Source: a virus (taxonomy: Duplodnaviria; Caudoviricetes). Taken from it: a stretch of 61,446 bases of DNA. Below, piece after piece: positions 117 through 60,382 of the stretch (position 1 is its first letter; each line of letters opens with the position of its first letter). A model generated the notes under the pieces. The model was given only the letters and a program-made list of their open reading frames with translations, did not search any database and was not told the origin of the DNA. The position numbers were made by a program, and so were the translations under genes. The stretch is taken from IMG/VR virus record IMGVR_UViG_3300021347_000002, positions 1 to 61,446 of that record; one strand, 5' to 3'.

Positions 117-118
117 AA

Positions 119-775: not shown

Positions 776-797
776 AATATCAATTATTTGGTTTGGT

Positions 798-5097: not shown

Positions 5098-5733
5098 TTA
5101 AATCTCGTTTCCGGTCTCCGCGTCAATCGTTTTTTTCTGTCTGATTGCTCCTCCGCCTTTATCTGCTTTGGAGTTATTCAAGATAGAAATATCGATCTGC
5201 ATCTTACTACTACCGCCGCCAGTTTTTGCGTTGAGTCCTAAGTTACGCCTGATGAGTTGGTCAAGTTCTGACATCTCGCGAATCGTTCGCGGCGCGCGGA
5301 TTCCCTTCATAGAATCTCGGAGCAATTTAATTCCAGCAGCCGCGATGTAGTGCTGGTATTTATCAGCAGGTGTATTCTGCGCTTCTGCTATCTCTGCTAA
5401 AGTCACATCTTCTTCCTTAGACGCACGGAACCTTTCTTCCACAATAGCTGAACTAACAGTCTCGTTGAAGTGTTCTTCGATATCTTCTTTGAGCTGGTCT
5501 TTGTCGGCGTCCGCATGTTCATCTTTGACTTTTGTATTGTGGATTAAGTTGTTTAGAACTTTACCGTCCGCTACGCTCCCATTCATCTTCGGGTCCACAC
5601 CGTGCTTTTTTAACCACTTACGTATTGTGTTGCGATGGACTCCTATGTGTTGACCAATCGCGCTATTACTGTAACCTTCTTTGTTAAGGCGTAAGGCTTC
5701 AGCCTCGCACTCTCTAATAGGTTTCTCAGACAT
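5098..5733 (-). CDS. HTH DNA-binding protein, possible terminase small subunit
   Basis: N-terminal HTH YSNSAIGQHIGVHRNTIRKWLKK, helical C-terminus; adjacent to TerL but divergent. Confidence 0.6.
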   Translation of the reverse strand: MSEKPIRECEAEALRLNKEGYSNSAIGQHIGVHRNTIRKWLKKHGVDPKMNGSVADGKVLNNLIHNTKVKDEHADADKDQLKEDIEEHFNETVSSAIVEERFRASKEEDVTLAEIAEAQNTPADKYQHYIAAAGIKLLRDSMKGIRAPRTIREMSELDQLIRRNLGLNAKTGGGSSKMQIDISILNNSKADKGGGAIRQKKTIDAETGNEI

Positions 5734-16100: not shown

Positions 16101-19100
16101 GAACTTCCGAATCTGAATTGGAAGAGATACGGGATGAGGTGAAAAGGATTATCGGTAGAGCGAACAACAACGCTTCTCAGAACTCAGCATCGCAAGCAGC
16201 GACTCCGATGGAGCGTAAGCTGATGCGAGCAGATAACATAGCTGAGATCGGAAGGCTCGGCCTTGAGCATGACAGCCCTGACACAGTCGTTGAGGCACTC
16301 AAGACTATCTCTACTGAGTCAGACAATCCATCACACAAGTTAGTGGCCGATCTTCTTTTGGAAGACGAGAGCTTCCTAAGTTCAGTTGACTTCCATATTG
16401 TGGATAGCCCAGCAAACTTCGCTGGTCAGTATGTCTACCGGACAGATGGAACTCATCGGGTAGCAATCAACATCGACACAGGTAACAAGCTCGGACTTGA
16501 GAACGTCCTGCTTGAGGAATACGTCCACGCGTTCTTGTCTGATGTAACTAAATCAAATGCCGATCAGAGGTCTGACCAGCAGAACGAGGCTGTTGAAAGA
16601 CTCAACCGGATCTACAAGCTAGCAGAGAAACAGTATCGCGCTAAGGGTATTAAAGATCCTATGCTGGAGGATGCCTTCGTGGATTTCGACGAGTTCTTAG
16701 CTAAGTTCTTATTGTCGCCTAAGCTACAAGCTAGCATCAAGTCACTGGAAGCTCCTGCTGACCAGCGTGGTTTCTTCAAGAGGATCATTGATTCTATCTT
16801 GTCCATGTTCCGCAAGCGTAAGGTATCGAAGACTGAAGCTGTTGAATACGGTAAGGCTCTACAGGATGTCATCGACCTAGCGAAGTCTCCTACCTTAGCA
16901 CAGCTCCCTCCTCTGACACAAGACGCAGCGCGAGTTGCGAAAGAAACTAGTTCCATCCTGAGCCGTGTCCAAGAGGAGACAGTCAAGCACGAGGAGCGGA
17001 AAGAGAACCGCATGACCTCTGAAGAAGCGGTCGATGATACTGTATCCGATGAGCCAGTCACTTTCGAGTCTGAGAAGAGTCGTAAGATCATGGAGGTTGA
17101 GGCTTACTTACGGAGTAGGATTCCAAGAGGGCTATCTCTACAGGAAGCAGCCCTTCTAGACATAGGAAGTATTGCTCGGTTAGATCAAGGAAATTTCAAC
17201 TCAGATGGAATACAGATAGTTGAGTTCGACTTTAAAGCTTTTGAGGTTGCGACCAGAGGAATGGATATGGTTGGAGCTAAGGTCTACGCAGAGAAGACTC
17301 TACTGCATGAGACGATTCACTCTGCTTCCTATAACGTCCTTACTGTTGAAGAGATCACTACGCTAGAGGAGTCCCTCTCAGATGAGGACTACGCTTCTAT
17401 TGCTGAGACATACTTCAGAACCGACGAGGCTATTGCAGAGGCAAAGGCAAAACTCGATAGTGAGAATGTAGAGGAAGCCGCTCTCATCAGGAGGCAACTC
17501 GCTGAGGAACATCTCCGTATGAACTCAGAGCGTATCCTCTCTGGAACAACTACTGAAGAGGACGCTGAGTTCTGGTCGTCTGACCCATCACTACTGAGCA
17601 TTATCGCCCGATACGTCAGATCAATGTTCGCCCGCCTCGCTGCCATCAGACGCGCTCAAGGTGGCTCAGGTGTTCTAGATGAGATGCTCATCCGTATCCA
17701 CGATGAGGTCACTCTCATCCAGAACGGTTATGTTAGCTATGATCCTTCGATGGAGTTCAACACCGACGACCCTGAAGAATCTTTAAACAAGTTCAATGAG
17801 ATATTGAAGCGAGACATCGGTTCAGGACAGCCAGAAGGAGTAGCTCTTCAAGCTCAAGTCGGGGCATCCTCCGCAAGTGACGTAGACTTCTCTAATATTC
17901 CAAAGCTGCTTGAGCTTTCGATGGTGGAGTTCAAGACTTACAAATCTCCAAAGACTTGGTTCGCTAGAAACTTCAAAGGAGATGTTGACCTACCTGTCAA
18001 ACGGATCATGGAGCAGCGCGCTGAGTTTGAGAGAGCATCAACTCGTGTCTTGAAAACATTCCACACGGAATTCAATAAGATCATCGAAAGAGATTTCGGT
18101 GAGATGACTCAGGAGTTGAGTGATAAGATCAATCTAGCCCAAGGTTATTCTCCCACCAGCCTCGTCAAAGAAGAATTCTACAGAGAGGTAGAGGAAGAAC
18201 ATCGCCTTACAGTAAGGCAGATAAATAAAGATGACTCACTCACTGACGTTCAAAAGAAAGAACAGAAAGCAGAGTCTCGCAGAATCAAAGAGAAGAAGAT
18301 TGAAGAGTTAGAGAACGTCAAGATCGCAGAACATCAACAGTCCGTTGATAAAGCACTGGATGATATCAGGCAAACGTCTCCAGACCTCGCTGCTAAGATC
18401 ACTCTGATGCGTGAGGAACTCATCCGACCTATCCAGAAGATCATGACTAAAGAGGATTCCGGTATATCGGAAGAGCTTAGGGCTAGGATCGATAGGACTG
18501 GTGGGATCTACCTTACGAGACAGTATAAGATCTTCAACGATCCGACATACGCTCAGAAGGTTCTGGAAGATCCTGACTTCCAGACCGCTCGTGAGTTCGC
18601 TATCGAATACTTCACGAATCAGATGGGACTCTCGGAGGCTGACGCTACTGAAGCCATGAAGGTGTTCGTGCAGCAGTATGACACTGGACTCCAAGGAAGT
18701 GGGACGCCCCTCACTAAGTCTTATAAGAAGATCATGAAGAACCTTTCACGCCGGAAGGATCTGCCGATTGCACTTAGAAATCTTATGGGTGAATATGGTT
18801 TAGAAGAGTCTACTAAAGGAGAGCCAGCCACCAACCTCCTGCTTAGAACCTTTGCTACCGTGTCTTCACTAGCTGCACAACAGAAGTTCAGAAGTAACAT
18901 TGTAAAGTGGGGAGACGAGAGCAAATCAATCATCAGCAAAGCAGACAGAGATGCAGACACAGAAAAGTTCGGGGACTATGTTCTCTTGCTTGATCCTAAG
19001 ACCGCAGTCAAAGGTGATCCACTAGCTGGTATGTATGCCGCAGCTGATACAGTAAAAGACCTAAGAGAAGTCCTCACGGCATCCCCAATAGGAATTGATT

Positions 19101-20881
19101 CCTCATCTGCTGGTAAGACCGTAGAGGGTATGGCTAAAGTGATGCAGAACCTAACGGGTAAGTCGATGCTGTTCAAGACACTCGGCTCCGTTGGTTTCTA
19201 CCTCCGTAACATCTTAGGAAACGTATTGTTCTTCGGTCCTGCTCAAGGTGTGTCGCTCTCAACAATGGGCGGGACTATGTCAGATTCTTATAATTCTATC
19301 AAAGGAATCCTGAATCCTGACCAGATAGATGCAGAGCTTACTGAGATGGTAGGTCTTGGAGTATTTGGTGACGAGCTTCGTGCTGGTATGATCAAGGAGT
19401 TACTCGACGGTAAGAGTGAAACCTTCCTTGATAAGCTCAACAACATCCTCGACAAGGTTCCTGACGATAAAGCATCAGGAGTTAAAGGAGTCACTACAAA
19501 GACTAGAGAGAAGGTTAAGTCACTAGAGGAAGCACTCATGAGACTGTCCTCTAACATCGACGGAGTATACAAAGTCCAATACTACAAGCACGAGCTGGGC
19601 GTCTTAAAAGAAGCAGTCGCTAAGTATCCTGATTCAGATCTCGCCGAGAAGGTGAAAGATAATGAAGATATCCTGAAACGCATGGCAGCTGACAAGGTTA
19701 AGCGGACTGCCCAGTCATTGAGCCAAGCCCCACCGATCATTAGTAAGCTATCAAAGTCTAGCTACGGTATGCTCTTCGCTCCGTTCATCCGATTCAAAAC
19801 GGAAGTGCCACGTATCGTGTTCAATACATACGAGCTGGCGAAGGAAGAAATGGCTAGCGATAACCCATTGATAAAAGCTAGAGGTAAGCGGAGACGTATC
19901 GCCATGACATCAATGGTAGGTGGGTTCTCGTTAGGACTACCAGCAGCGGCGGCACTGCTTATGGCAGGGATTGGTAACGACGAAGACGAAGCACTTAGAA
20001 AGTCAATGCCGTCCTACTTGAGGGGGCATTCGTTCTTCTTCTATAGGTGGAACGGCGAACTCCAGTCAATCGACCTGACTTATGTAAACCCATTCAGCAT
20101 CATGGCTGATCCAGTGGCGCGCAGTTTCCAAGAAATAACAAGAGGCAACGCCGATGGCGCAGTTGGTTCATTCCTGAAAGGGTTCTTCTTCGACCAGTAT
20201 CTCGATGAACAGATCCTTGCAGGGGCTGTTCAAGACGCAATGGATAACCGAGATGCCAAGACAGACCGACCGATCTCCATCGATAAGGTGGACGGGTTCT
20301 CTGTCGCGTTCGCTAAGAGGTTCGCCTATGTCATGGACACAGCTTACAATCCGCGCCTGTTGAGTGATGCATGGGACGCATACAAAGCTATGGGGACAGA
20401 CTACGAAGAATTAAGCGACTCGCCTGTTGGTGAGTTCTTCAGTGGCACACTGCCATTCAGAATCCACGATGTGGATGAGGAAGCTCAGTTCCGTAGGTTC
20501 ATCCGAGACCACAAGGATCGGGTGAATGAAGTGAAGTCTAAGAAGTATCGCATGTATAGCGACCAGCCCATCAGTGAAGATGAGATCCGCGACATCTACA
20601 ACGATGAAGCAGATGATCTAATCACATTGAACAAGGAAATGTATACCGTGATGCAAGGATTCAAAGGTCTAGGCATCGAGGACAGGGAACAGTTCAACAT
20701 GATGAAGGGTGCGGGAATCGGGAAAGATAAAGCAAGACTCCTTAGAGTCGGCATATCAGATAGACTAACCCCCAATGTCGGGTTCCTTGAAGGACTCCAA
20801 CAAAGGGGGCTAGCTGATCGTATCTCTCCTATGCTAGAAGAGAAGAACAAGAGGGCTAGGTATCACAGACTAGACGACTGA
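10172..20881 (+). CDS. Giant (3569 aa) internal virion / polyvalent protein
   Basis: Uninterrupted ORF with Gly/Ala-rich hydrophobic segments, low-complexity linkers, an SHD1-like segment, and zincin-like motifs LLEEYVHA and LLHETIHS. Confidence 0.75.
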   Translation: MTEFQDYSDWVKQRPVSSDSTQNKVDYSNYLRKTHLDSNEYSLEVENSIQNELYGSLVSSGDIEEGDVDAFSSLTTPQAISSEAKMDIIQSRIDPKSSSWQAITAYKTAEADGLPPEEVQRLKTNAGFIADREYDSMKRQMVRNGELAFAAFTNLDGSREIVAGDAAIGANLSDALKASKMGEVTLSDALAAQQQMTPAFGTKVPAFKASRYSQASAIMSELIRGDEKTNNLLQAHAELRAGEEDEGFMDQAANVVNAFGDAFVGIFSSEKREQNSAMFRAKDVTRDEAVADMMLRVNSSNALPEGEEFTAQEIGAAFDHAVLERATAQNMFDQYTGEEAGRNLRISSTGMPIMASDVLANEDLFNDTVKGSTLDDNQKDFLRQTRTSVLTDRFEDYSEMFKRSAVEDQWSQALIEGANQGKKNHEILNDFLKDEDNYSLVTQRSKGIAWSLVNSIGTLAAAIPAAAGNKMATDYLADVAQKNSDRQQIARLFGQEYGYAGEIGETIAPMVTDISATAFLSAGTFGTGGAAYVAAKSGSVAVAKTVTKSYVNHVVKSVPRSVFRIKGAKYQGKLSDAINIAVKKGHSDLTMDVLKEFNSEVVRKAGIASAAAIPAATRSSAATYGAITNALRSDTDMSDEEIRDKALGAGMMSGAITGIITGGFSALGRGGLDDALLRGMTFRDMTKVVSKMTNVTNKTNLDANVKAALRKSIAESAKKAGLASAALTKKASRIRSRAGEIAVAVGRNFGDEAVEEGLDEFFNSFVEDAALDQDTPMFERLSQSYHAAVLGGIMGAGAPAVQKAGAALRRQRGITFSQVDRMTSEVAQSASENLKANGSPVAAAVLERLFQTPLREMVAAPEVTEAAPEVTEAAPEVTEAAPEVTEAAPEVTEAAPEVTEAAPEVTEADTLEEVVEEPTEVEGDPASVEEAFKNNPDEAKDLSLDEVNERESNEEPDKSKPRKKAKKKVGKKKVAKKKVAKKKVAKKIEEEEEIVYDLDEETMADLQAELEEETGQKEAEPTPAEETAARKAVAKKAVAKKAAAKKAAAKKAAAAKKAAKKTVAKKVVKKSKLKKRIERKEKDPFYIVPDPKQAKNFYNEKDFLSSGVNPEEVTDENGEIVLSTEEREIADKVFALSKKGFPVNFTKQARYGVDLSKHQENDGRDRISTVLAREVYNRFPVLQPTESTAKGLDKFSTGAAKYGAKKVTHYDPVTGKRKNLSVKGYLDINGNGVFNNDPITMTEMLARDIPVFIPKEFRDSPLLNPSFTNHFDPQSGQLLGLQKPHKKDPNRIELVRKEIRRTEEPYDFSAFLSLANLKFIRPDDKPAYKQIRSWKFIIGKEEGKAPARGNYLEGSFIKKTGDSVFVRRKAEDADTVKINALRKELKALENTPFKDPEAKAAARRKIQDKLALARGRTITIPISKLSDFDRNWVENVPTDKELSAPDPTLPLGVSLTNPRTGMPIEASNKTRHKMSDVLRSVGDFATLALPLASEANVTLSDGSTASSRGIKAVTNLLAPASRESFRRLESAMGFSVENIVTEIEIEYEILLNFFNIRQEILTDQQKLGKNTTHKLSPLQFNKGVDLLLRHMSLDVDESSLRTQKGIISKQKIKKARMQAASDLISRYSDNYGGSPIENVRNFLLKDVVNNKRFMETGRMPDLMGLVRLSADKYVKQSITRGSVEKERDTESLDDLSFEGSIGMFDAQAVVGSLDMLDVDLGSLPDSFASIVDRAILEVNENEELRGELEALYIDSILINSPTSSIDEVPNLSTKNLIEGVADIISMAGYDSPSSKNALAFKRAVEQSEYFTPQSSLRIALESIYYGDGDPVRIGNYLAKLKRRQDRYRPDLSISEYRAYTESYEEGERMALEEERGEPITLTEKGMEIAAEGGATPTRYARRLVRKKQEKESVPAIEGLSTVKEQMDIVQGKDVFDALSEEDKNIIKGIQATVLKGDLSLEEKENLRDITSRIISPRTSESELEEIRDEVKRIIGRANNNASQNSASQAATPMERKLMRADNIAEIGRLGLEHDSPDTVVEALKTISTESDNPSHKLVADLLLEDESFLSSVDFHIVDSPANFAGQYVYRTDGTHRVAINIDTGNKLGLENVLLEEYVHAFLSDVTKSNADQRSDQQNEAVERLNRIYKLAEKQYRAKGIKDPMLEDAFVDFDEFLAKFLLSPKLQASIKSLEAPADQRGFFKRIIDSILSMFRKRKVSKTEAVEYGKALQDVIDLAKSPTLAQLPPLTQDAARVAKETSSILSRVQEETVKHEERKENRMTSEEAVDDTVSDEPVTFESEKSRKIMEVEAYLRSRIPRGLSLQEAALLDIGSIARLDQGNFNSDGIQIVEFDFKAFEVATRGMDMVGAKVYAEKTLLHETIHSASYNVLTVEEITTLEESLSDEDYASIAETYFRTDEAIAEAKAKLDSENVEEAALIRRQLAEEHLRMNSERILSGTTTEEDAEFWSSDPSLLSIIARYVRSMFARLAAIRRAQGGSGVLDEMLIRIHDEVTLIQNGYVSYDPSMEFNTDDPEESLNKFNEILKRDIGSGQPEGVALQAQVGASSASDVDFSNIPKLLELSMVEFKTYKSPKTWFARNFKGDVDLPVKRIMEQRAEFERASTRVLKTFHTEFNKIIERDFGEMTQELSDKINLAQGYSPTSLVKEEFYREVEEEHRLTVRQINKDDSLTDVQKKEQKAESRRIKEKKIEELENVKIAEHQQSVDKALDDIRQTSPDLAAKITLMREELIRPIQKIMTKEDSGISEELRARIDRTGGIYLTRQYKIFNDPTYAQKVLEDPDFQTAREFAIEYFTNQMGLSEADATEAMKVFVQQYDTGLQGSGTPLTKSYKKIMKNLSRRKDLPIALRNLMGEYGLEESTKGEPATNLLLRTFATVSSLAAQQKFRSNIVKWGDESKSIISKADRDADTEKFGDYVLLLDPKTAVKGDPLAGMYAAADTVKDLREVLTASPIGIDSSSAGKTVEGMAKVMQNLTGKSMLFKTLGSVGFYLRNILGNVLFFGPAQGVSLSTMGGTMSDSYNSIKGILNPDQIDAELTEMVGLGVFGDELRAGMIKELLDGKSETFLDKLNNILDKVPDDKASGVKGVTTKTREKVKSLEEALMRLSSNIDGVYKVQYYKHELGVLKEAVAKYPDSDLAEKVKDNEDILKRMAADKVKRTAQSLSQAPPIISKLSKSSYGMLFAPFIRFKTEVPRIVFNTYELAKEEMASDNPLIKARGKRRRIAMTSMVGGFSLGLPAAAALLMAGIGNDEDEALRKSMPSYLRGHSFFFYRWNGELQSIDLTYVNPFSIMADPVARSFQEITRGNADGAVGSFLKGFFFDQYLDEQILAGAVQDAMDNRDAKTDRPISIDKVDGFSVAFAKRFAYVMDTAYNPRLLSDAWDAYKAMGTDYEELSDSPVGEFFSGTLPFRIHDVDEEAQFRRFIRDHKDRVNEVKSKKYRMYSDQPISEDEIRDIYNDEADDLITLNKEMYTVMQGFKGLGIEDREQFNMMKGAGIGKDKARLLRVGISDRLTPNVGFLEGLQQRGLADRISPMLEEKNKRARYHRLDD
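12749..12895 (+). repeat. 21-bp coding tandem repeat x7 (APEVTEA)
   Basis: GC(A/G)CCTGAAGTTACAGAAGCT repeated 7 times. Confidence 0.97.
13058..13395 (+). repeat. Histone H1-like KKVAK/KKAAA 15-bp repeats
   Basis: AAGAAAGTAGCTAAG x3 and GCTAAGAAAGCTGCT-type repeats, separated by an acidic stretch. Confidence 0.85.
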
Positions 20882-25263: not shown

Positions 25264-25340
25264 TAAAAAACTATTCTCTCTTACCCTTAGTTCTATAATA
25301 TATATACTATAGAACTAAGGGTCTGGAGAAAAAGTTTTTA
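25264..25340 (-). repeat. ~77-bp palindromic element, copy 2 (inverted)
   Basis: Reverse complement reads TAAAAACTTTTTCTCCAGACCCTTAGTTCTATAGTATATATATTATAGAACTAAGGGTAAGAGAGAATAGTTTTTTA; begins at the TAA of ORF 25338-25718. Confidence 0.95.
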
Positions 25341-25718
25341 GATCGACATCTTGAACGAGGCACTCTTGAGCAGGTCTCCCAACATATCGTCGAGCGACTC
25401 ACTCAACTCCTGCTTGACGTTGTATTCCATGTCATGGGCTATGCTATCCATGTCTATGTGTGATGCCACGTCATCGATATCCATAGCGTATGCTACGTCA
25501 TCAGGATCTACCTCGACGTGCTTCGCCACGTCTTCATCTCTGATATGCTCGGCGATGTATCTCTCATCTATGAACAAGGCTAGGTTTTCGTAGTCAAGCA
25601 CACCATCTGATAAGACGATGTTCTTGAGTTCATCTTTAAACAACCAGATCGCTACGTTACGGATCTTAGTTGCTACTGTCTTCTTTGTGTTGGCGATTGC
25701 CTTCTTTATTGTTCTCAT
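25338..25718 (-). CDS. Hypothetical acidic protein with ~9-aa internal repeats
   Basis: IAEHIRDED/VAKHVEVDPDD/VAYAMDIDD/VASHIDMDS/IAHDM. Confidence 0.7.
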   Translation of the reverse strand: MRTIKKAIANTKKTVATKIRNVAIWLFKDELKNIVLSDGVLDYENLALFIDERYIAEHIRDEDVAKHVEVDPDDVAYAMDIDDVASHIDMDSIAHDMEYNVKQELSESLDDMLGDLLKSASFKMSI

Positions 25719-25826
25719 TATTTCTTATTGGTTTGGTTTGGGTCGTCAGTTTCAACGTGAAACAACGCACACCCTACAACGTCGATGCCTGTCGAGACAT
25801 AGACGCTGTGTGGGTATGGGTTTCTA

Positions 25827-26582
25827 CTAGTGGACACTAGTAAGTGCAGGCTCAACGACGAAGCCTGTCTCATCCTTCTTGGCCAGCCCCTTCTCAGTAA
25901 GGCCCACGACCACACCCTTCCTGTCGAGGAACCGAAGGTCTGTCTCGTCACCACTCACCACATCAAGCCCTAAGTATTTCTCAGGTAGCTGACCACGGAA
26001 CACGACTGCGGTGTTCACTCCCATGTGGGCCAGCTTCTTGATCCAGTCGTCATTGGTAACTTCAGACCGTGAGTAGGTGAGGTGGTAGTTGCTAGGCCAG
26101 CAGCCACCCTTCAATCGTTGGGATGCCTTAGCCCTAGACATTGACTTGGTGTAGTCGTAGAAGGTCACATCAGGGAAGAGATCGAAGATTGTCTGGTCCC
26201 TCTTATCGAAGAGGCTGGTCTTCTCACCTACCACAGTGAGCTTCTCCCATGAGATGTCCGATGTCAGGTTGAGTCGGAAGCATGGCTTGAGTCCGGCTCT
26301 CTTAGCTGACTTGATACTGGACCTGATCTCCTTGATCAGCTGCTCCATGAAGGCTTCACGATCTTCAAAGAACATCTTGGTCTTGTCGATACGTGCTTGC
26401 TGCACGGTCTTCATGATGCCTCGGCCTGCTGTATTGAGGCAGGCTAAGGCACATCCCTTCGATGCATAAGGGCAGGTATTATATCCTGATATCTTGCTAG
26501 GGGCTAGGTGAATACCGTAAGTGCGGTATCCGATTGCTTCTCCCTTGATTGTCTTTGTGTTTCCGGCGTTTAGTAGTTTCAT
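25827..26582 (-). CDS. Gp88-like phage protein
   Basis: CPYASKGCALACLNTAGRG, RLNLTSDI, FYDYTK, YHLTYSRSE, GDETDLRFLD, GLTEKG. Confidence 0.8.
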   Translation of the reverse strand: MKLLNAGNTKTIKGEAIGYRTYGIHLAPSKISGYNTCPYASKGCALACLNTAGRGIMKTVQQARIDKTKMFFEDREAFMEQLIKEIRSSIKSAKRAGLKPCFRLNLTSDISWEKLTVVGEKTSLFDKRDQTIFDLFPDVTFYDYTKSMSRAKASQRLKGGCWPSNYHLTYSRSEVTNDDWIKKLAHMGVNTAVVFRGQLPEKYLGLDVVSGDETDLRFLDRKGVVVGLTEKGLAKKDETGFVVEPALTSVH

Positions 26583-26589
26583 TTTTCTT

Positions 26590-26618
26590 ATTGGTTATTG
26601 GTTATTGGTTATTGGTTT
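26590..26618. repeat. TTGGTTA heptamer tandem repeat in gene leader
   Basis: About 4 copies here and about 3 at 26954-26973; reads (AACCAAT)n on the coding strand. Confidence 0.85.
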
Positions 26619-26630
26619 TACTAGTGTCCA

Positions 26631-26945
26631 CTAGTATAGTTCTTCGACTGTCTTCTCCCACTCTTCGAGAGATCGATCAGTCCACTTCGTCCAACGTGGT
26701 CGGATGCCGTGTTCTTCTTTGTATAGATCCCAGTATTCCTCCCATAAGAGAGTCCGTTTGAAATCACTTACAGTCTCACAACCATAGTGTTTGCAGTGGT
26801 CGATGAGATCATCTGAATAAGTTAGGAAGGTCGGTTTAATACATGAGCCTTCATTCAACTTGATGAGTTCTCCCATATAAAGACGCATCTCCTTACTCTC
26901 GGCAAGCATGACAGATGGGTGTTCGGTTTCATTATTTGTTTGCAT
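26631..26945 (-). CDS. Hypothetical protein
   Basis: 104 aa, YWDLYKEEHGIRPRW motif; its stop lies inside an ACTAGT palindrome. Confidence 0.7.
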   Translation of the reverse strand: MQTNNETEHPSVMLAESKEMRLYMGELIKLNEGSCIKPTFLTYSDDLIDHCKHYGCETVSDFKRTLLWEEYWDLYKEEHGIRPRWTKWTDRSLEEWEKTVEELY

Positions 26946-26985
26946 TATTCTATTTGGTTATTGGTTATTGGTTTACTAGTGTCCA

Positions 26986-27297
26986 CTAGTTGTCTCGGTT
27001 GAGGGGGTCGAGGTTGAATTGCTCTGCGACTTCTGGGGATAATTCAAAACAGATATACTCATGCTCTGCATTACCATATCGGACTCCCACCGTAAGCCAT
27101 CTACACTCTTCGTTTGAGTAAAAACGATAGGCATCTAGCTTATCTGTGGTTTGGCATAAGTATTTAGCCGTGTCTGTTACCGTCCTCTCGTAGTGCGGGT
27201 TATCTTTATTGTATTGAGCGGTCTTGGCCCGCATCACTTCCCACAAATCAAGAGGGACTGCTCCAGAGTAAGGCTGGTTCCAATGGTTACTTGTCAT
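26986..27297 (-). CDS. Hypothetical protein, paralog of the C-terminal domain of 27287-27988
   Basis: Shares AVPLDLWE, DKLDAYR, VG(V/I)RYG and FNLDPLNRDN; start reassigned to ATG 27297. Confidence 0.75.
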   Translation of the reverse strand: MTSNHWNQPYSGAVPLDLWEVMRAKTAQYNKDNPHYERTVTDTAKYLCQTTDKLDAYRFYSNEECRWLTVGVRYGNAEHEYICFELSPEVAEQFNLDPLNRDN

Positions 27298-27988
27298 TGT
27301 CTCGGTTGAGGGGGTCGAGGTTAAACAAAGCAGCCGTTTCATTTGTAACGAATGGTGAGTCGTAATCATCAACACCCATACCGTATCGGATACCTACGAT
27401 CAGCTTGAAGCTACTACCCGCAGTCAATATTCCATCACCTCTGGTGGGGTATATACGATAGGCGTCTAGCTTGTCAGATTTTCTGGCGTATAAGGATACC
27501 CTCTCCATGAGTCGGTCATGAGTTACTTCACCGTATATTTCATACGTTATGGCACGGAACAGTTCCCACAAATCAAGTGGCACCGCTTCGGTATATTCGT
27601 TATACCAATGACGACCTTCCTCTCGTTTCTCATGGCACTCTAGTTCGATACGGCGTTCCTCCTCTTGCTCACGCTCCCACCGTTCTGCGTCAGCAGCATT
27701 CTCCAGTAGGCGTTCTGCTTTTTCGGTGACCTTTTCTTTGTCCATAAGATGACCGCCAATACGACCAGTATCGAATCCGATGACCCACCTATTATTCTCC
27801 TCTTCGGAGTAGGTCAGACCACCTTCACTAAACCCCCATTCATTCAGTTCGTCGTAGTGCTTCCCATACCAACAATGGCCTAAAGGAATGGATATGTATC
27901 CGTTGTAATCTCCGCAGCAATCACGTTGGATGGGGTGTGGGCGGAGGAAGAGGAATGGTGGTATTGTTTTATCGTTCTTTGTTTGCAT
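27287..27988 (-). CDS. Two-domain hypothetical protein
   Basis: N-domain NGYISIP..H.WYG...GGLTYS...WVIGFDT; C-domain duplicated in the downstream gene. Confidence 0.75.
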   Translation of the reverse strand: MQTKNDKTIPPFLFLRPHPIQRDCCGDYNGYISIPLGHCWYGKHYDELNEWGFSEGGLTYSEEENNRWVIGFDTGRIGGHLMDKEKVTEKAERLLENAADAERWEREQEEERRIELECHEKREEGRHWYNEYTEAVPLDLWELFRAITYEIYGEVTHDRLMERVSLYARKSDKLDAYRIYPTRGDGILTAGSSFKLIVGIRYGMGVDDYDSPFVTNETAALFNLDPLNRDNDK

Positions 27989-27992
27989 TGTT

Positions 27993-28214
27993 CTATTTGG
28001 TTTTTGTTTTTGTTTTTGTTTTACTAGTGGTCACTAGTAGTTCAGATATTGTTTCGTCAGCTTCTACCTTGCTTACACAGTGGTAGTATTTTGTCTTTAA
28101 ATAAAAGCCACGGCCACATGGCGTTGGCTTGCTTATGCGGTTATGCTCTACAATGTAGGCTCCCCACTTGTCCCGCCTCGTAAAGCAGAACCCGTTTGGG
28201 TGTGTGTATTTCAT
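27993..28214 (-). CDS. Hypothetical protein
   Basis: 73 aa; C-terminus reads through an ACTAGT palindrome and the next leader (LVTTSKTKTKTKTK). Confidence 0.6.
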   Translation of the reverse strand: MKYTHPNGFCFTRRDKWGAYIVEHNRISKPTPCGRGFYLKTKYYHCVSKVEADETISELLVTTSKTKTKTKTK

Positions 28215-28573
28215 ATGTTTCTTATTGTGATTCCTCTACATGTCGAGGGTATCTCGGTTGGTTCTATCGACTCAGGATCTGACATGACGTAGCCGAACTT
28301 CACACCGTTCCACTCATAACCTTTCAGGTCACATGGAACATGGTGCAACGGTTCGTCATACCGGAATCGGGGTTCGTCAGTGTATCGAATGGCGTTGGAG
28401 ATGGTGACGTAGCCAACAAGCTTTGCCTTACCTTTGCCAGTCTGGATGACTCCAACCCTCTTGCCTACAAGCGAGGCAAGGGAGTTGGTGTTTCTTGTTT
28501 CAATTACCTTCTCTCCTGCGAGAATGAGGTCGGTCCAGTTCTTCTGGCTATCGTTGCAATTGAACGCTTTCAT
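28211..28573 (-). CDS. ASCH-domain protein
   Basis: LILAGEKVIETR (GxKxxExR motif), LVGYVTI. Confidence 0.8.
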   Translation of the reverse strand: MKAFNCNDSQKNWTDLILAGEKVIETRNTNSLASLVGKRVGVIQTGKGKAKLVGYVTISNAIRYTDEPRFRYDEPLHHVPCDLKGYEWNGVKFGYVMSDPESIEPTEIPSTCRGITIRNI

Positions 28574-28593
28574 GTTTTACTAGTGGTCACTAG

Positions 28594-28752
28594 TTATTTT
28601 CTACTTCTACGTTTCTTTACTTCATTGACTGCTTCCATCACAAGGATGTAAAGGAAGACAGGCATTGCTAATACGCTAGCGATTACTAGCAGGACTTCCG
28701 GCCCCTTCATTCCTTGAAGGGACTCGCCAATTACTTTTGCTATTTCGTTCAT
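28594..28752 (-). CDS. Small membrane protein (52 aa)
   Basis: Translated by hand: MNEIAKVIGESLQGMKGPEVLLVIASVLAMPVFLYILVMEAVNEVKKRRSRK; flanked by two ACTAGT palindromes. Confidence 0.65.
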   Translation of the reverse strand: MNEIAKVIGESLQGMKGPEVLLVIASVLAMPVFLYILVMEAVNEVKKRRSRK

Positions 28753-28777
28753 AGTCTGTTTGGTTTACTAGTGGACA

Positions 28778-29320
28778 CTAGTCGATTGTGATAAGGGATT
28801 GGATATCGTCCAATGAAGATTGGACCTTAGCAGCTGCATCCGTATCAGGTTCCATGTCTTCCAGCTTCGCTTTTACGCGGCGAAGGGTTTTCAGGATGTT
28901 AGCCAGTTCATCTTCTGCCTTCTTTTCTTTCGGTTCGACATACTCGCCCCAAAGCTCAGGATCTTTCTTGAACCTTCCCCAACATCCACCAGCGCGGCTG
29001 TTGAGTTTCTTGGCGGAAATCTTCTCACCCTTCCAATCAAGGTAGAGCTTGTAAGCTCCTAGCATATCAGCATTGAAGTCAGGCCATTCCCATCCCGCTA
29101 GATAGCACATATTGGCTATCTCGGTGAAGTAAGGGCAGGCATTCGTGCTTCGCTTACTAGTGGCCACTAGTGCTTCAAAGATTGCTAAGCTGGCAGCATT
29201 GTCTTCCCCTTCAGCTGCGAGGGTTTCCCATCGGTTGAATAGGGTAAGGGATGCTTGGTCTATGCTATCAAACATTAGGTCGATAGCGGCTACGAGGTCA
29301 TTTGCAGTTGTCTTTTTCAT
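28778..29320 (-). CDS. Hypothetical protein, first gene of the leftward early block
   Basis: ATG at 29320 follows an AAACCAAATAAGCAA leader; stop lies in an ACTAGT palindrome. Confidence 0.7.
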   Translation of the reverse strand: MKKTTANDLVAAIDLMFDSIDQASLTLFNRWETLAAEGEDNAASLAIFEALVATSKRSTNACPYFTEIANMCYLAGWEWPDFNADMLGAYKLYLDWKGEKISAKKLNSRAGGCWGRFKKDPELWGEYVEPKEKKAEDELANILKTLRRVKAKLEDMEPDTDAAAKVQSSLDDIQSLITID

Positions 29321-29608
29321 TTGCTTATTTGGTTTATTGTTTAAGGCATTGTTGCCCTTCAACCTTACAGGGAGGCAATCATCTTTTTCCTTGTACCTAC
29401 AAGGGTTCCTGATCCAGACAGCCCCCCTTTGCCCAAGCCTTCAATCCGAAGGGTGAATCCTGAATCCCTGAACCATTATTCTTGATTAGTGGCTCGTGGC
29501 TCGGGATTCGTTATTAATAGTTCGCGCGCGGACTAGATAGACGCCACCGGTAGGGTCGGCTTTTTTTTCTCGCGGCGCGCCGTATACATATACGTATTTA
29601 GAAAAAAA

Positions 29609-29636
29609 TTGACGGTGGGGCTACGTTTAGTAGGGT
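29609..29636 (+). promoter_or_regulatory. Possible sigma70-type promoter, leaderless
   Basis: A-tract, then TTGACG-16 bp-TAGGGT; in-frame ATG at 29643. Confidence 0.45.
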
Positions 29637-29900
29637 ATGAGCATGCCGGAATACGACCCGAAGAAGAAAAAAGAGTATTACCAGAAACATCGAAAAGAGC
29701 GTCTAAGATACCAAAACGACTATTATGAGCGGACGAAAAGTCGGAGGGAGCGAACTTTTGAGATTATGGAAGAGCTGGAGCCTAGTCAGTTTAATACGTA
29801 TAAACAGCAGTTAAGTGACTACAACAGAGAGTATTACAAGAAAAACAGGGCCAAGATATTGCGAAAGCGTGCGGAGGCGAGAGCGAAAAAGTCGAAATAA
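29637..29900 (+). CDS. Small basic Lys/Arg/Tyr-rich protein
   Basis: KEYYQKHRKE/REYYKKNRAK repeats; start at 29637 or 29643. Confidence 0.65.
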   Translation: MSMPEYDPKKKKEYYQKHRKERLRYQNDYYERTKSRRERTFEIMEELEPSQFNTYKQQLSDYNREYYKKNRAKILRKRAEARAKKSK

Positions 29901-29974
29901 AAACTTTTCTTCCAGACCTTTAGTTCTATAGTATATATATTATAGAACTAAGGGTAAGACAGAAAAGTTTTTTT
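29898..29974 (+). repeat. ~77-bp palindromic element, copy 3
   Basis: TAAAAACTTTTCTTCCAGACCTTTAGTTCTATAGTATATATATTATAGAACTAAGGGTAAGACAGAAAAGTTTTTTT; begins at the TAA of ORF 29637-29900. Confidence 0.95.
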
Positions 29975-30006: not shown

Positions 30007-30438
30007 ATGAAGATACCGAAAGGGTGGAAGCAAATAGAAGGAGCGTCTAATTACGCGCTATCGCCAGAAGGATATATACATAGTCTGAAGTCAGGTAAAC
30101 CGATGTCACGGAGGTGGCGGGGTCTCCGTTTCTGGTCTTCAGTTACGTGTGACGACGGTAAGTATCGTCAGATCGCACACGACGAGTTGCGGTATCAATC
30201 GCACGATTTACCGGATGAAGAGATGAAGATTGTGAAAGGCTACCCTGACTACAAGGTGACGCCATATGGTGCAGTCTGGAAATACCGCAAGACGCCTCGG
30301 AAGTATCGCAATAACCCGTTCTTAGTAGAGACTAAAGACATCGGTAACAAGGAGTATGTTAGGATGGTTACTGAGGACGGTAGACGTCATTGGGTCCGTA
30401 TGGAGAAGATCATGGAGGAGGCTTACCCAAATGATTGA
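30007..30438 (+). CDS. Tandem NUMOD4-like domain protein
   Basis: WKQIEGASNYALSPEGYIHS and MKIVKGYPDYKVTPYGAVWK; no HNH motif seen. Confidence 0.65.
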   Translation: MKIPKGWKQIEGASNYALSPEGYIHSLKSGKPMSRRWRGLRFWSSVTCDDGKYRQIAHDELRYQSHDLPDEEMKIVKGYPDYKVTPYGAVWKYRKTPRKYRNNPFLVETKDIGNKEYVRMVTEDGRRHWVRMEKIMEEAYPND

Positions 30439-30462
30439 CATTGACCGTCAATTCAATATACT
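30435..30462 (+). promoter_or_regulatory. Sigma70-type promoter for the portal operon
   Basis: TTGACA-16 bp-TATACT; ATG at 30471. Confidence 0.65.
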
Positions 30463-30470
30463 CGCCAAGT

Positions 30471-32693
30471 ATGTCAAACTTAATTGACTTAGACGGCCTC
30501 GACTTAGGGAGCCTTGATGAAAAGGGTAAGCCTGTTGAAACACGTCTCAAGGATGTAAAAGCAGCTATAGGCATCTTTGCAACCTTGCTCCGCGCTGATG
30601 AGAAGTCTGCTGTTAACCGTTCTCGGATTGACAGTATGTTTGACGGCAATGCCCCATACAGCCAATCACAGTTAGCGGCTAGTGGTCAAGGTCTCAAGAC
30701 CAACTTGAACTTCGGCGAAGCGCAGCGTCTGCTAGACATCTCTCTTTCGGCCTACGTTGACCTCTACAGCTCTTTAGAGAAGCTAGTGGAGGTAAAGGCT
30801 ACAACGGGCGAGAGAAGCGAGACAAAGCCAAAGGAGGACATCGTAGCGGAAGAGCTGACAAACTTGTTCCGCCGCTGGCCAGAGTTCCACAGTAGCTACC
30901 TTCGTCTTTGCACGCAGTTCATCAAGCACGGTGTAGGTATTGCCTACTTTGACTCACCAGAAGACTGGAAGTTCCGTGTCGGTGGTTTCGCTGACATACT
31001 CATTCCGCGACAGTCAGCCGCTTCGGAGAACGGTATCGACATCGCGGTTGGTCGTCGCCAGTATCAGTTACACGAGCTATACCACTTCATTAAGAACGAG
31101 AAAGCCGCTAAAGCGGTCGGCTGGAACGTAGCAGAGGTCAAGCGAGTCATGATGGAGAACGTCAAGACTTCGGGCCGCGCTTACACGTCTGGCAATACAT
31201 ATTCTGACTACGAGGCATTGCAGGCAGAGATCAAGAACAACGATCTCTACACCGGCATCCAGAACCCAACCGTTGACGTATTGCATTACTGGGTGCGTGA
31301 GATCGACGGTAGCGTAAGTCACTACATCTCCGCTGAGTCTAGTCCTAAAGATTTCCTATACAAGAAGGTCAGTCGCTACGACTCTCCTGAACAAGCCTAT
31401 ATCTTCTTCACCTATGGAGTCGGGAGTAACGGCACTTATCATTCGATTAGAGGACTCGGCCAGCGGATCTTTGCTCACGTCCAGACAAGTAACAGGCTTC
31501 GTTGCCAGCAGATTGACGGCGCGATGTTGGCGTCGGCTGTTATGATTCAGCCAGAGAACCAACGCTCTCTAGACGAACTCAGCTTCACATTCTACGGCGC
31601 GTATGCTGTGATGTCGCCTAACGTGCGTATTGTTGAGAAGGCTATTCCGAACTTAGGCACAGCAGTCCAACCAGCCTTGCAGGATCTCACGCAGCAGTTG
31701 AATCTTAACACCGACACAATGTCGCCGTATGGACCGAACCAGACTTCGCCATACAAGAATAAGATGCAGGTTGTAGCGGACATGGATGTGGCTACACGGA
31801 TTAGTGGTAGCACGCTAAACTTATTCTACTCAAGTTGGACTCGCCTAATGCGCGAGATGGTCCGCCGTATTGTTCAGGTCAAGCGGCCTGATGCGGCGAT
31901 TAAAGATTTCTTCGACCGTTGTGAAAAGCGGGGCGTAGAAAAAGAATTCATTAAGAAATTAGATGTCGCACAGACCAAAGCAGTTCGTTCCATTGGTAAT
32001 GGATCGCACGCAAACAGACTCGTCTCGCTTCGCGAGCTTCAAGGAATTAGTGGGCAATTCGACGACGTTGGTCGCCGCAACCTTACTCGTGACATCGTTA
32101 GCACTCGTGTCGGTCACGACCTCGCGGATCGCTATGTTCCGGCGCAAGAAGACGACAGGAAAACGGTAGATACCAAGATTGCTTATCTTGAGAACCAGCA
32201 GTTGCAACAAGGCCAGCCAGTTCCGGTTGTCTCTAGCGAGATGCATGGCCAGCACTTGCAGTTACACGTTCCGTTGTTGCAGCAGTTCATGCAATCGATC
32301 AACGAAGGACAGGCTGACCCGCAGCAGGTTCTTCCGGCATTGCAGGCACTTTACCAGCACATTAGCGAGACCGCCCAATACGCTGCTGGAGATCCGGCAT
32401 TGCAGGCCGTAGTGTCGAACGCGAAGCAGATTCTCCAGTATGCTGAAGAAGCGATCAACAACACCATGAAGGCGTTGGAGAAGATCCAGAGGGAGCAACA
32501 GCAAATTTCTGAAGAAGGGGGTGGACAACCTCAAGCGTCTGAGGTAGACATGAAGCTACAGAAGGCGCAAGTCGATATGCAGATCACGCAGCAGAAGGCT
32601 GAACTTGAGATGGCTATTAAGCAGAAGAAGTTCGACCAAGAGCAAGCGATCCGCGATGCCGAAGCCGCCTTGAGGTTTCGTGAACAAGAATAA
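30471..32693 (+). CDS. Portal (head-tail connector) protein
   Basis: About 740 aa, helical, with a Gln-rich C-terminal coiled coil; precedes the scaffold and capsid genes. Confidence 0.7.
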   Translation: MSNLIDLDGLDLGSLDEKGKPVETRLKDVKAAIGIFATLLRADEKSAVNRSRIDSMFDGNAPYSQSQLAASGQGLKTNLNFGEAQRLLDISLSAYVDLYSSLEKLVEVKATTGERSETKPKEDIVAEELTNLFRRWPEFHSSYLRLCTQFIKHGVGIAYFDSPEDWKFRVGGFADILIPRQSAASENGIDIAVGRRQYQLHELYHFIKNEKAAKAVGWNVAEVKRVMMENVKTSGRAYTSGNTYSDYEALQAEIKNNDLYTGIQNPTVDVLHYWVREIDGSVSHYISAESSPKDFLYKKVSRYDSPEQAYIFFTYGVGSNGTYHSIRGLGQRIFAHVQTSNRLRCQQIDGAMLASAVMIQPENQRSLDELSFTFYGAYAVMSPNVRIVEKAIPNLGTAVQPALQDLTQQLNLNTDTMSPYGPNQTSPYKNKMQVVADMDVATRISGSTLNLFYSSWTRLMREMVRRIVQVKRPDAAIKDFFDRCEKRGVEKEFIKKLDVAQTKAVRSIGNGSHANRLVSLRELQGISGQFDDVGRRNLTRDIVSTRVGHDLADRYVPAQEDDRKTVDTKIAYLENQQLQQGQPVPVVSSEMHGQHLQLHVPLLQQFMQSINEGQADPQQVLPALQALYQHISETAQYAAGDPALQAVVSNAKQILQYAEEAINNTMKALEKIQREQQQISEEGGGQPQASEVDMKLQKAQVDMQITQQKAELEMAIKQKKFDQEQAIRDAEAALRFREQE

Positions 32694-59699: not shown

Positions 59700-59701
59700 A
59701 A

Positions 59702-60358: not shown

Positions 60359-60382
60359 AATATCAATTATTGTTGGTTTGGT

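What the first reader, a model, noticed from the sequence alone, without database searches (positions are those of the whole stretch)
25826..29171. Seven ACTAGT-N4-ACTAGT palindromes punctuate the early genes like cassette boundaries
Seen: ACTAGTGNNCACTAGT at 25826, 26620, 26975, 28023, 28579, 28767 and 29156, all within 3.4 kb. I did not see the paired form elsewhere. In four cases the palindrome supplies the TAG stop of the upstream gene (25827, 26631, 26986, 28778), one abuts a TAA (28594), one is read through (28023), and one perfect copy lies inside a CDS (29156). Most are followed by an A/C-rich leader and the next ATG. The whole cluster lies between copies 2 and 3 of the 77-bp element. 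Inference: operator array for a phage regulator, hairpin promoters or DNA-entry signals for a first-injected segment, or crossover points for gene-cassette shuffling.
Basis: partly seen in the sequence, partly recalled or inferred. Interest (0 to 1): 0.82.

Follow-up and report, generated by a model that had tools for sequence, protein, structure and literature searches.

The report
Private palindrome linking shuffled phage early genes
A 16-base palindrome repeated seven times in this uncultured marine phage marks the joints between its small early genes, and related phages gain, lose and swap those genes at these joints.

Summary
ACTAGTGNNCACTAGT occurs 7 times in 3.4 kb (0 expected), and no further copy exists even with 3 mismatches. 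The genes there lie on the minus strand. On that strand each copy is followed by AAA and an A/C-rich leader, then the next ATG. Five copies supply or touch the upstream stop codon, one is read through and one lies inside a gene.

In the window, a near relative and 24 metagenome contigs, the stretches between copies fall into 28 cassette families arranged in 24 different orders. In 42 of 52 junction comparisons, similarity ends within 6 nt of the palindrome.

The copy inside the first early gene keeps all its synonymous sites in 13 of 13 alleles, down to 38% amino-acid identity.

Relatives with 93-98% identical portals carry different private palindromes at the same joints.

I found no phage RNA polymerase, no sigma-70 boxes and no U-tract at the motif.

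Best reading: a lineage-private intercistronic linker that serves as the crossover point for cassette shuffling. It works like the PeSLs of T4-type phages but lacks their promoter. Its role during infection is unresolved (RNA hairpin or protein site).

The parts
29156..29171 (-). Copy M1, ACTAGTGGCCACTAGT, a perfect 16-nt palindrome in frame inside the first early gene (codons L-V-A-T-S).
   Evidence: It is invariant in 13 of 13 alleles of the gene, down to 38% aa identity, with all synonymous sites fixed.
28767..28782 (-). Copy M2. It supplies the TAG stop of the 180-aa gene. The ATG of the 52-aa gene follows 14 nt downstream.
   Evidence: The relative L006 has two extra cassettes inserted exactly here.
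28579..28594 (-). Copy M3. The TAA of the 52-aa gene overlaps its first base. The ATG of the 120-aa ASCH-like gene follows 5 nt downstream.
   Evidence: The cassette it heads is absent from L006.
28023..28038 (-). Copy M4, read through by the 73-aa ORF. The ATG of the 233-aa gene follows 34 nt downstream.
26975..26990 (-). Copy M5. It supplies the TAG stop of ORF 26986..27369 (103 aa if it starts at the ATG at 27297). The ATG of the 104-aa gene follows 29 nt downstream.
26620..26635 (-). Copy M6. It supplies the TAG stop of the 104-aa gene. The ATG of the GP88-family gene follows 37 nt downstream.
   Evidence: Contig joints 26634->27297 and 26635->26954 were seen in runs X8 and X9.
25826..25841 (-). 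Copy M7. It supplies the TAG stop of the GP88-family gene. The ATG of the 126-aa gene follows 107 nt downstream.
25338..29320 (-). The early gene cluster that holds all seven copies: ten ORFs, mostly without any family. I infer it to be one transcription unit.
   Evidence: ORFs. Families: 1 of 10 proteins passes a Pfam cut-off (GP88) and a second, DUF932, lies just outside the cluster. No sigma-70-like site lies on the minus strand inside the cluster.
28778..29320 (-). First early gene (180 aa, all-helical, unknown fold). It occurs in every ACTAGT-type contig that reaches this position and in no relative that carries another motif.
29321..29636 (.). Divergent intergenic region upstream of the cluster. 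One block is conserved in all relatives and contains the plus-strand promoter-like site TTGACG-16-TAGGGT. The early promoter itself was not located.
25266..25340 (.). Copy 2 of the 75-77-nt palindromic element (A-run, long hairpin, T-run). It is the likely terminator closing the cluster. A TTGACA-16-TATTAT site on the minus strand follows at 25183-25156.
29899..29973 (.). Copy 3 of the same element. It lies behind the plus-strand 87-aa gene and bounds the region on the other side.

Best explanation
The seven palindromes are copies of one lineage-private junction element that separates the cistrons of the phage's first early gene cluster (minus strand, about 29.3 to 25.3 kb).

Read on the coding strand, the element is: stop codon, ACTAGTG-NN-CACTAGT, AAA, an unstructured A/C-rich leader without Shine-Dalgarno, then the next ATG. 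The palindrome provides TAG in two reading frames.

SHOWN: it is the only sequence shared by otherwise unrelated small genes, and related phages differ by additions, deletions and replacements of whole gene cassettes whose borders fall at it.

INFERRED mechanism of the shuffling: homologous recombination between the roughly 20-bp shared joints. Unequal exchange within one genome deletes cassettes. Exchange between co-infecting relatives swaps them. The same exchange keeps the copies identical within a lineage.

INFERRED role in infection (about 0.4): the element acts in cis on the polycistronic early transcript as a short hairpin between stop and start. It would insulate or couple translation of neighbouring cistrons, or mark a processing or stability site. 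This rests on the equivalent joints in relatives, which carry clear RNA-type hairpins. A site for a dimeric DNA-binding protein is the main alternative.
For: Placement and statistics: 7 copies against 0 expected, and none elsewhere. Every copy lies 5-107 nt upstream of a minus-strand ATG and is followed by AAA.

Population survey: the window, L006 and 24 metagenome contigs gave 120 instances and 90 unique contexts. +1 to +3 are A in 87, 79 and 72 of 90. The incoming ORF stops in the motif's TAG in 49 of 90. In the rest, 13 are the in-gene copy, 8 read through and 20 have no long incoming ORF. The median distance to the next ATG is 24 nt, range 0-129.

Shuffling: of 53 metagenome stretches holding the extended motif, 24 have 2 or more copies. 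The inter-motif stretches form 28 families in 24 distinct orders among 26 sequences, for example C M P A G B, C E H K A D B, Q I F A G B and C L I A D B. In 42 of 52 junction comparisons the similarity on the differing side ends within 0-6 nt of the motif. In clean cases the shared side has 0-3 mismatches in 60 nt. The window and L006 are 80-94% identical across the region but differ by whole cassettes at the motif. Contig joints at 26634/26635 appear in two runs from different studies.

Selection on the nucleotides: in 13 alleles of the first early gene, 46 invariant amino-acid columns have degenerate codons and only 12 keep a single codon. Five of those 12 are the consecutive motif codons. 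Of the other 23 columns with 4-6-fold degenerate residues, 1 keeps a single codon.

Family-wide equivalence: 32 loci share the portal (93-98% identity in the closest) but have unrelated early genes. They carry other private palindromes at the same joints: CTCCCTTTNAAAGGGAG x4, TACCCCTNNAGGGGTA x6, ACTACSGTAGT x6 and CATAAC-AA-GTTATG x3. Where a whole genome or record was searched, these lie only in a 3-5 kb stretch.

RNA-type hairpins in relatives: L106 has one stem with three different loops (UUCG, GCGA, GCAA). L096 has a UUCG hairpin. In L087 the stop lies in the left arm and the ATG in the right arm. The L103/L095 elements fold at -20 to -33 kcal/mol.

The ASCH-like gene is 85% identical in nucleotides between the window and L103, starting exactly at the ATG, and each copy is headed by its own genome's element.

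Published analogue: PeSLs (PMC2839356 sections 13 and 16 read; PMC4122927 abstract read).
Against: The ACTAGT hairpin is weak as RNA: -4.1 kcal/mol, 6 pairs, an ordinary loop.

The 11 degenerate copies found (7 distinct sequences) carry uncompensated mismatches, and no compensatory double change was seen. This fits sequence recognition better than structure.

The strict invariance of all 14 arm positions, including the G and C next to the centre, is what a dimeric DNA-binding protein would impose.

A hairpin or linker has no obvious use inside the first gene's coding sequence, yet that copy is the best conserved.

The cassettes keep a partial order, and no inverted cassette was seen (0 inverted matches of 60 nt or more). 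Ordinary homologous exchange in flanking shared cassettes could therefore produce part of the mosaic without the motif being the crossover site.

The contigs were found through the motif itself, so conservation counts are biased upward. Many contigs are fragments of related genomes and are not independent.

The comparison of sense and antisense folding energies in relatives is mixed: sense is more stable by 4.3 kcal/mol or more in 4 of 8 L103/L095 copies, the two are within 1 kcal/mol in 3, and antisense is more stable by 4.7 in 1.
Confidence: 0.6

Rival explanations
1. Operator or roadblock array. A dimeric sequence-specific protein, from the phage or the host, binds each 7-2-7 palindrome on double-stranded DNA and switches the early cluster off (or on). 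The cluster A mycobacteriophage repressor does this at stoperators. Each lineage would have its own protein-site pair. Cassette borders coincide with the sites only because the sites sit between genes.
For: The arms are invariant and the centre is free. The RNA hairpin is weak. Degenerate copies have uncompensated mismatches. A copy inside a coding sequence is held by nucleotide-level selection. The anatomy matches the 17-bp 7-N3-7 repeat of Cluster O mycobacteriophages, whose authors predict a dimeric binder (PMC4351075, passages read). Private motifs in otherwise near-identical phages would fit diverging regulator-site pairs.
Against: No protein that varies with motif type was found. The HTH 5098..5733 is 89-91% identical in G001 and G002, which lack the motif. 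The 87-aa basic protein is 73% identical between two loci with the same motif but 91% between loci with different ones. The DnaA-C-like protein was found in 1 of 4 relatives. The 180-aa protein has no DNA-binding fold hit (best Foldseek E 0.25). On the coding strand the centre is only AC, TC, GC or GA, never GT, and the 3' flank is fixed. This asymmetry is not expected for a symmetric dimer, although founder effects could also produce it. The equivalent elements in relatives look like RNA hairpins.
Confidence: 0.22
2. Phage-specific promoters. Each palindrome with its AAA(A)C tail would be a roughly 21-bp promoter, possibly used as an extruded hairpin as at N4 early promoters, read by a virion-borne or early phage RNA polymerase. 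Each cassette would bring its own promoter.
For: Each copy sits upstream of a gene, with a conserved tail where a start site would fall. The length resembles single-subunit polymerase promoters (recalled). A 3569-aa virion-module protein has N4-vRNAP size (the N4 size is recalled). No sigma-70-like early promoter was located upstream of the cluster.
Against: No RNA polymerase was found. The giant protein has 0 PHROG families and only a sub-threshold low-complexity Pfam hit. It has no PDB sequence hit below E 0.067 and none of the T/DxxGR, HD or DxDGD-type motifs (recalled motif definitions). Its Atlas neighbours are hypothetical, and its 13 homologues are unnamed; one carries two Pfam domains (PF18760, PF23802) whose names were not looked up. 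The other modules carry good sigma-70-type sites, TTGACA-N16-TAnnnT at 7632, 25183, 30435 and 34176, so host polymerase is used. In the L087-type relative the ATG lies inside the palindrome. One copy is 5 nt from its ATG.
Confidence: 0.07
3. No role in gene expression. The palindrome would be a selfish or purely recombinational repeat, copied along whenever a cassette is inserted and kept uniform by gene conversion.
For: Borders of indels coincide with it. Each lineage has a different, arbitrary-looking sequence. The most divergent contig (L150) shows decaying copies.
Against: The in-gene copy keeps six synonymous sites fixed across alleles down to 38% identity. Its orientation relative to the genes never flips. 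The stop codons and the leader are integrated with it. No recombinase or integrase gene was recognised in the window, although many ORFs have no family.
Confidence: 0.1

Closest known systems
PeSLs (promoter-early stem-loops) of T4-type phages (Arbiol et al. 2010, PMC2839356; Comeau et al. 2014, PMC4122927)
   Same: Both are repeated intergenic motifs with this layout: stop of the upstream gene, stem-loop, ribosome-loading region, start of a small ORFan. Both concentrate in the hyperplastic early region. Insertions, deletions and replacements between close relatives are bounded by them. The proposed mechanism, recombination between copies, is the same.
   Different: PeSLs are about 100 bp and contain a consensus sigma-70 promoter and a stem-loop that terminates transcription; both were shown by reporter assays. 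Here the conserved part is about 20 bp. It has no -35/-10 boxes, a weak stem and no U-run. There is no Shine-Dalgarno. One copy lies inside a gene. The sequence is private to a lineage and is replaced by unrelated palindromes in phages with 93-98% identical portals. This phage is not T4-like. Mini-circles were not tested.
17-bp repeat of Cluster O mycobacteriophages, TGTTCGGNNNCCGAACA (Cresawn et al. 2015, PMC4351075)
   Same: Two invariant 7-bp inverted arms around a variable centre. There are many copies in one genome, mostly between genes and some inside genes. The function is unknown.
   Different: The Cluster O repeats are spread through the whole genome (34 copies) and are not tied to start codons. 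The authors report that few if any are involved in indels. Here all copies lie in one 3.4-kb early cluster, each heads a gene, and they coincide with indel borders.
Stoperators of Cluster A mycobacteriophages (PMC9283540, search listing and abstract only; details recalled)
   Same: Many copies of one short site at gene borders inside operons. Site and regulator differ between related phages.
   Different: Stoperators are asymmetric 13-bp sites bound by a known monomeric immunity repressor of temperate phages. Here the site is a palindrome, no repressor is known, and there is no sign of lysogeny.
RNase III processing hairpins between the early genes of T7 (recalled textbook knowledge, no call)
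   Same: One hairpin at each cistron border of a host-transcribed polycistronic early RNA.
   Different: T7 sites are roughly 20-bp irregular stems and differ from one another. The ACTAGT stem has 6-7 pairs. Only some relatives (L103/L095, L102, L096 types) have stems of that length.

Membership tests
PeSL (T4-type mobile regulatory cassette) | Repeated conserved motif immediately upstream of ORFans in a hypervariable early region | tested here: met
PeSL (T4-type mobile regulatory cassette) | Indels and replacements between close relatives bounded by the motif | tested here: met
   (42 of 52 junction comparisons end within 6 nt).
PeSL (T4-type mobile regulatory cassette) | Contains a sigma-70-like early promoter (-35, -10, AT-rich upstream region) | tested here: not met
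   The scan found no site at any copy. The upstream flank carries at most 0.49 bit per position.
PeSL (T4-type mobile regulatory cassette) | Stable stem-loop that terminates or attenuates transcription | tested here: inconclusive
   A stem-loop can form but is weak (-4.1 kcal/mol) and is followed by A, not U. Termination was not assayed.
PeSL (T4-type mobile regulatory cassette) | Excised cassette mini-circles | not testable with these tools
   Only assembled contigs were available.
N4-type DNA-hairpin early promoter | A virion RNA polymerase (T7-like domain in a giant protein) encoded by the phage | tested here: not met
   Sensitive profile-profile or fold comparison of the giant protein was not run.
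N4-type DNA-hairpin early promoter | Hairpin of 5-7 bp with a 3-nt loop and specific loop and stem purines, with a start site about 11 nt from the loop centre (recalled) | tested here: inconclusive
   The stem length fits. The loop is 2 or 4 nt and its bases vary. No TSS data exist.
Intrinsic (Rho-independent) terminator | G+C-rich hairpin followed by a U-run on the transcript | tested here: not met
   The scan listed no copy. The tail is AAA in 72-87 of 90 contexts.
Dyad-symmetric operator of a dimeric repressor (as proposed for the Cluster O 17-bp repeat) | Invariant inverted half-sites with an uncontacted variable centre | tested here: met
Dyad-symmetric operator of a dimeric repressor (as proposed for the Cluster O 17-bp repeat) | A cognate DNA-binding protein that varies with the site | tested here: not met
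   No candidate follows motif type. The 180-aa protein is type-specific but has no DNA-binding fold hit.
Integron attC-type cassette site | Imperfect palindrome at cassette ends recombined by a tyrosine-recombinase integrase encoded nearby | tested here: not met
   The cassette-end palindrome is present, but no integrase or recombinase family appeared in the 47 window proteins scanned. Many ORFs have no family.

The most novel reading that the evidence does not exclude
These marine phages may use lineage-private 'standard linkers'. Each lineage would have its own palindromic joint that is both the expression signal of every early cistron and the only place where new cassettes can be plugged in. 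The joint would be read by a still unidentified lineage-specific factor, either an RNA-cutting or RNA-binding protein or a DNA-binding regulator. Phages with near-identical virions would then fall into separate compatibility groups for early-gene exchange and cross-regulation. This would be a lytic-phage counterpart of heteroimmunity, and it would explain why the joints are replaced wholesale while structural genes stay 93-98% identical.
Probability: 0.18. Interest if true: 0.85.

Novelty: new variant of a known kind. Interest (0 to 1): 0.62.

Why it matters
Early regions of lytic phages hold most of the unknown small genes, many of which probably act against host defences. How these genes are exchanged so quickly is poorly documented outside T4-type phages.

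Here a 16-bp palindrome marks the exchange points in an uncultured and apparently abundant marine phage group. Two MAG record titles hint at Porticoccaceae as the host. The population data show 24 arrangements of 28 cassette families.

The element lacks the promoter that explains PeSL conservation. Even so, it is held by selection inside a coding sequence, and sister lineages have replaced it with unrelated palindromes. That raises a testable question: what reads these joints?

The joints also give a simple handle for cataloguing early-gene cassettes in viromes.

Tried and rejected
RNA evidence: no RNA holder was listed for the region, so expression, transcript starts and processing could not be examined.

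Cultured relatives: none was found for the region DNA, the portal or the terminase. The DNA polymerase matched only at 28% identity or less.

Bacteroidota-type promoters (TTTG-N17-21-TAnnTTTG): 0 matches. I dropped this idea after good sigma-70-type sites were found.

Mimic of a host CRISPR repeat, or a host repeat: the extended motif occurs in only 4 stretches of the species-representative genomes. One is a fragment of this same phage, and three are single hits; the one I inspected (L183) lies inside a transporter gene. Rejected.

Long-range pairing of flanking copies around each cistron: the centres are complementary only around the GP88 cassette. Rejected.

Linking the centre dinucleotide to the upstream or downstream cassette, to map the crossover inside the motif: no consistent linkage.

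GP88 neighbours: 78 of the 84 loci held at that point have no copy of the motif, so the motif does not travel with that gene.

g180 homologues sought independently of the motif in IMG/VR: only the two contigs already known. The ascertainment bias of the conservation test could therefore not be removed.

tRNA scan: none found.

Earlier findings of this scan: none for this genome.

Supplementary files of the PeSL papers were not seen. Their reporter data (supplementary fig. S1) are taken from the main text only.

Full report
**1. The observation**

ACTAGTNNNNACTAGT occurs exactly at the seven stated positions. One hundred dinucleotide-preserving shuffles never produced a match. All seven copies fit ACTAGTGNNCACTAGT, and allowing three mismatches adds nothing elsewhere in the window. 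The window is the complete virus record. Its ends overlap by about 1.86 kb (1-300 matches 59584-59883), so the genome is about 59.6 kb.

**2. Anatomy**

The genes under the cluster are on the minus strand. Read on that strand, every copy is followed by AAA(A)C and an A/C-rich leader that lacks G and any Shine-Dalgarno. The next ATG follows 5, 14, 29, 34, 37 or 107 nt downstream.
- Four copies provide the TAG of the incoming gene.
- One overlaps a TAA by a single base.
- One is read through.
- One (M1, 29156) lies in frame inside the first gene of the cluster, a 180-aa protein, where it encodes L-V-A-T-S.

The motif offers TAG in two of three frames. The leaders add TAA or TAG in the third.

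The cluster (29320 down to 25338) is bounded by two copies of a 75-77-nt palindrome flanked by an A-run and a T-run. Behind the lower copy lies a minus-strand TTGACA-16-TATTAT site. Similar sites precede other modules, at 7632, 30435 and 34176. None lies at an ACTAGT copy. I therefore read the cluster as one host-transcribed unit with the palindromes at its internal cistron borders. This is an inference, because the early promoter itself was not located.

**3. What the phage is**

It has no cultured relative. Recognisable genes are a terminase, a family A DNA polymerase, a primase-like protein, a helicase, a PD-(D/E)XK nuclease, tail proteins and an amidase.

The 3569-aa protein invited an N4-like reading, but nothing supports it:
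- It has no PHROG family and no significant PDB sequence match.
- It lacks polymerase motifs, and its Atlas neighbours are not informative.
- Its 13 homologues are all unnamed. One of them carries two Pfam domains (PF18760, PF23802) whose names I did not look up.

Two record titles hint at a Porticoccaceae host. One is a 7.3-kb fragment of this phage binned in such a MAG. The other is a 96% identical copy of the giant protein. This is a hint only.

**4. Comparative evidence**

In IMG/VR the extended motif occurs in only two other contigs. These two are near-identical to each other. They match the window at 80-94% across the region, yet they hold eight copies with different spacing. Relative to the window:
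- They have two extra one-gene cassettes after the second copy.
- They lack the cassette that holds the ASCH-like gene.
- They differ in three further genes, each of which has one border at a copy.

A metagenome scan gave 53 stretches, 24 of them with two or more copies. I cut 26 sequences at the copies. The pieces cluster into 28 families arranged in 24 different strings. Of these families, 10 have more than one kind of left or right neighbour. No cassette is ever inverted.

In 42 of 52 comparisons in which two contigs share the cassette on one side of a copy but not on the other, ungapped similarity ends 0-6 nt beyond the motif. The ten exceptions involve cassettes that are partly homologous.

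Contigs from four public runs laid on the window show joints at 26634->27297 and 26635->26954 in two different studies. Contig ends at the copies are expected for repeats, and I did not count them.

**5. Selection on the sequence itself**

The 180-aa gene occurs in every ACTAGT-type contig that reaches it, in alleles down to 38% identity. Across 13 alleles, 46 invariant amino-acid columns have degenerate codons, and only 12 keep a single codon. Five of those 12 are the consecutive motif codons. Among the other 4-6-fold degenerate columns, 1 of 23 does so.

The first base of the motif stays A even where the residue changes between Ala and Leu.

The sample was found through the motif. A motif-independent search found no further alleles, so some ascertainment bias remains.

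**6. The wider family**

Thirty-two loci share the portal, at 93-98% identity in the closest. Their early genes are almost entirely different. They carry other repeated elements at the same joints:
- A roughly 75-nt element around CTCCCTTTNAAAGGGAG, four copies each in L095 and L103.
- A roughly 95-nt element around TACCCCTNNAGGGGTA, six copies.
- ACTACSGTAGT inside longer stems.
- TAAAACGTTT.
- CATAAC-AA-GTTATG, with the stop in the left arm and the start codon in the right arm.

Where whole records were searched, these palindromes are confined to 3-5 kb. In every case the centre of the palindrome is free.

In L106 one stem carries three different loops, UUCG, GCGA and GCAA. L096 has a UUCG hairpin. 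These loop types are known for stabilising RNA hairpins (established knowledge).

The ASCH-like gene is shared between the window and L103 at 85% nucleotide identity, beginning exactly at the ATG. Each copy is headed by its own genome's element.

**7. Mechanism**

What is shown: the palindrome is the border of exchangeable gene cassettes, and it is under nucleotide-level constraint.

I infer that the exchange is homologous recombination in the roughly 20-bp shared joint. The same process would homogenise the copies within a lineage. Arbiol et al. proposed this for PeSLs (PMC2839356, sections 13 and 16 read).

The role during infection is not settled. Several things favour a transcript-level hairpin:
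- The position between stop and start.
- The fixed orientation.
- The hairpin nature of all equivalent elements.
- The RNA-type loops in relatives.

Several things favour a protein site on DNA:
- The weak ACTAGT hairpin (-4.1 kcal/mol).
- The invariant arms.
- The uncompensated degenerate copies.
- The conserved in-gene copy.

No protein follows motif type. The type-specific 180-aa protein is all-helical (pLDDT 82.5) and has no fold match.

On the coding strand the centre is AC, TC, GC or GA and never GT. This mild strand asymmetry could also be a founder effect.

I put the transcript-level reading at about 0.4, an operator at about 0.2, a promoter below 0.1, and a purely recombinational repeat at about 0.1.

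**8. Comparison with known systems**

The closest known system is the PeSL: same layout, same association with ORFans and the same indel borders. A PeSL, however, contains a demonstrated sigma-70 promoter and terminator, and both are absent here.

The Cluster O mycobacteriophage 17-bp repeat has the same 7-N-7 anatomy. It is genome-wide, and its authors report that it is not involved in indels (PMC4351075, passages read).

Stoperators are asymmetric and have a known repressor (recalled; abstract of PMC9283540 seen).

I therefore rate the finding a new variant of a known kind. It is a promoter-less, lineage-private junction palindrome with population-level evidence of cassette shuffling.

Noticed in passing
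window 7531-7605, 25266-25340, 29899-29973: Three copies of a 75-77-nt near-perfect palindrome, flanked by an A-run and a T-run and with a TATAATATATATATTATA centre. Each sits at the end of a gene module. Two are followed within about 100 nt by TTGACA-N16-TAnnnT sites (7632 plus strand, 25183 minus strand). It is probably a bidirectional terminator that delimits transcription units. Public contigs also break at these elements.
   Followed up: partly
window 1-1087 versus 59584-60672: The two ends of the record repeat each other over about 1.86 kb, but at only 99% and 88% identity in the two stretches compared. The record looks like a circularly closed assembly that joins two population variants.
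   Followed up: no
window 10172-20881 (+): A 3569-aa ORF in the virion module. It has seven tandem APEVTEA repeats, Lys/Ala-rich repeats and an HExxH motif near residue 2378, but no RNA-polymerase signature. Its homologues (28-96% identity, 2635-4415 aa) are all unnamed; one carries Pfam PF18760 and PF23802.
   Followed up: partly
window 29605-29645 and 30435-30473: Promoter-like sites lie so close to the start codons that the mRNAs would be leaderless or nearly so. TTGACG-16-TAGGGT lies 6 nt before the ATG at 29643, and TTGACA-16-TATACT lies 8 nt before the ATG at 30471. Almost no gene in the genome has a Shine-Dalgarno sequence.
   Followed up: partly
window 26990-27018 = 27297-27325; 27225-27285 ~ 27550-27610: The 103-aa gene is a partial duplicate of the C-terminal half of the neighbouring 233-aa gene, including the same 26-nt 3' end next to the palindrome. 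The relative L006 lacks the duplicate.
   Followed up: partly
window 29321-29560 and the same region of L087-L103: The region between the conserved divergent promoter block and the first early gene is filled with lineage-specific short tandem repeats. One example is many GGACT units in L096. Others are CCCGAA and CCCTGA units.
   Followed up: no
L184 (contig of a Porticoccaceae MAG) and P0001: A 7.3-kb fragment of this phage (92-96% identity, 7 motif copies) and a 96% identical copy of the giant protein are both filed under Porticoccaceae MAGs. This is a possible host hint, or a binning artefact.
   Followed up: partly
window 22624-21447 versus L006 13959-13960: A 1.2-kb stretch of the second small-gene operon is absent from the close relative, with no ACTAGT motif at its borders. 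Cassette turnover outside the first early cluster therefore uses other joints.
   Followed up: no
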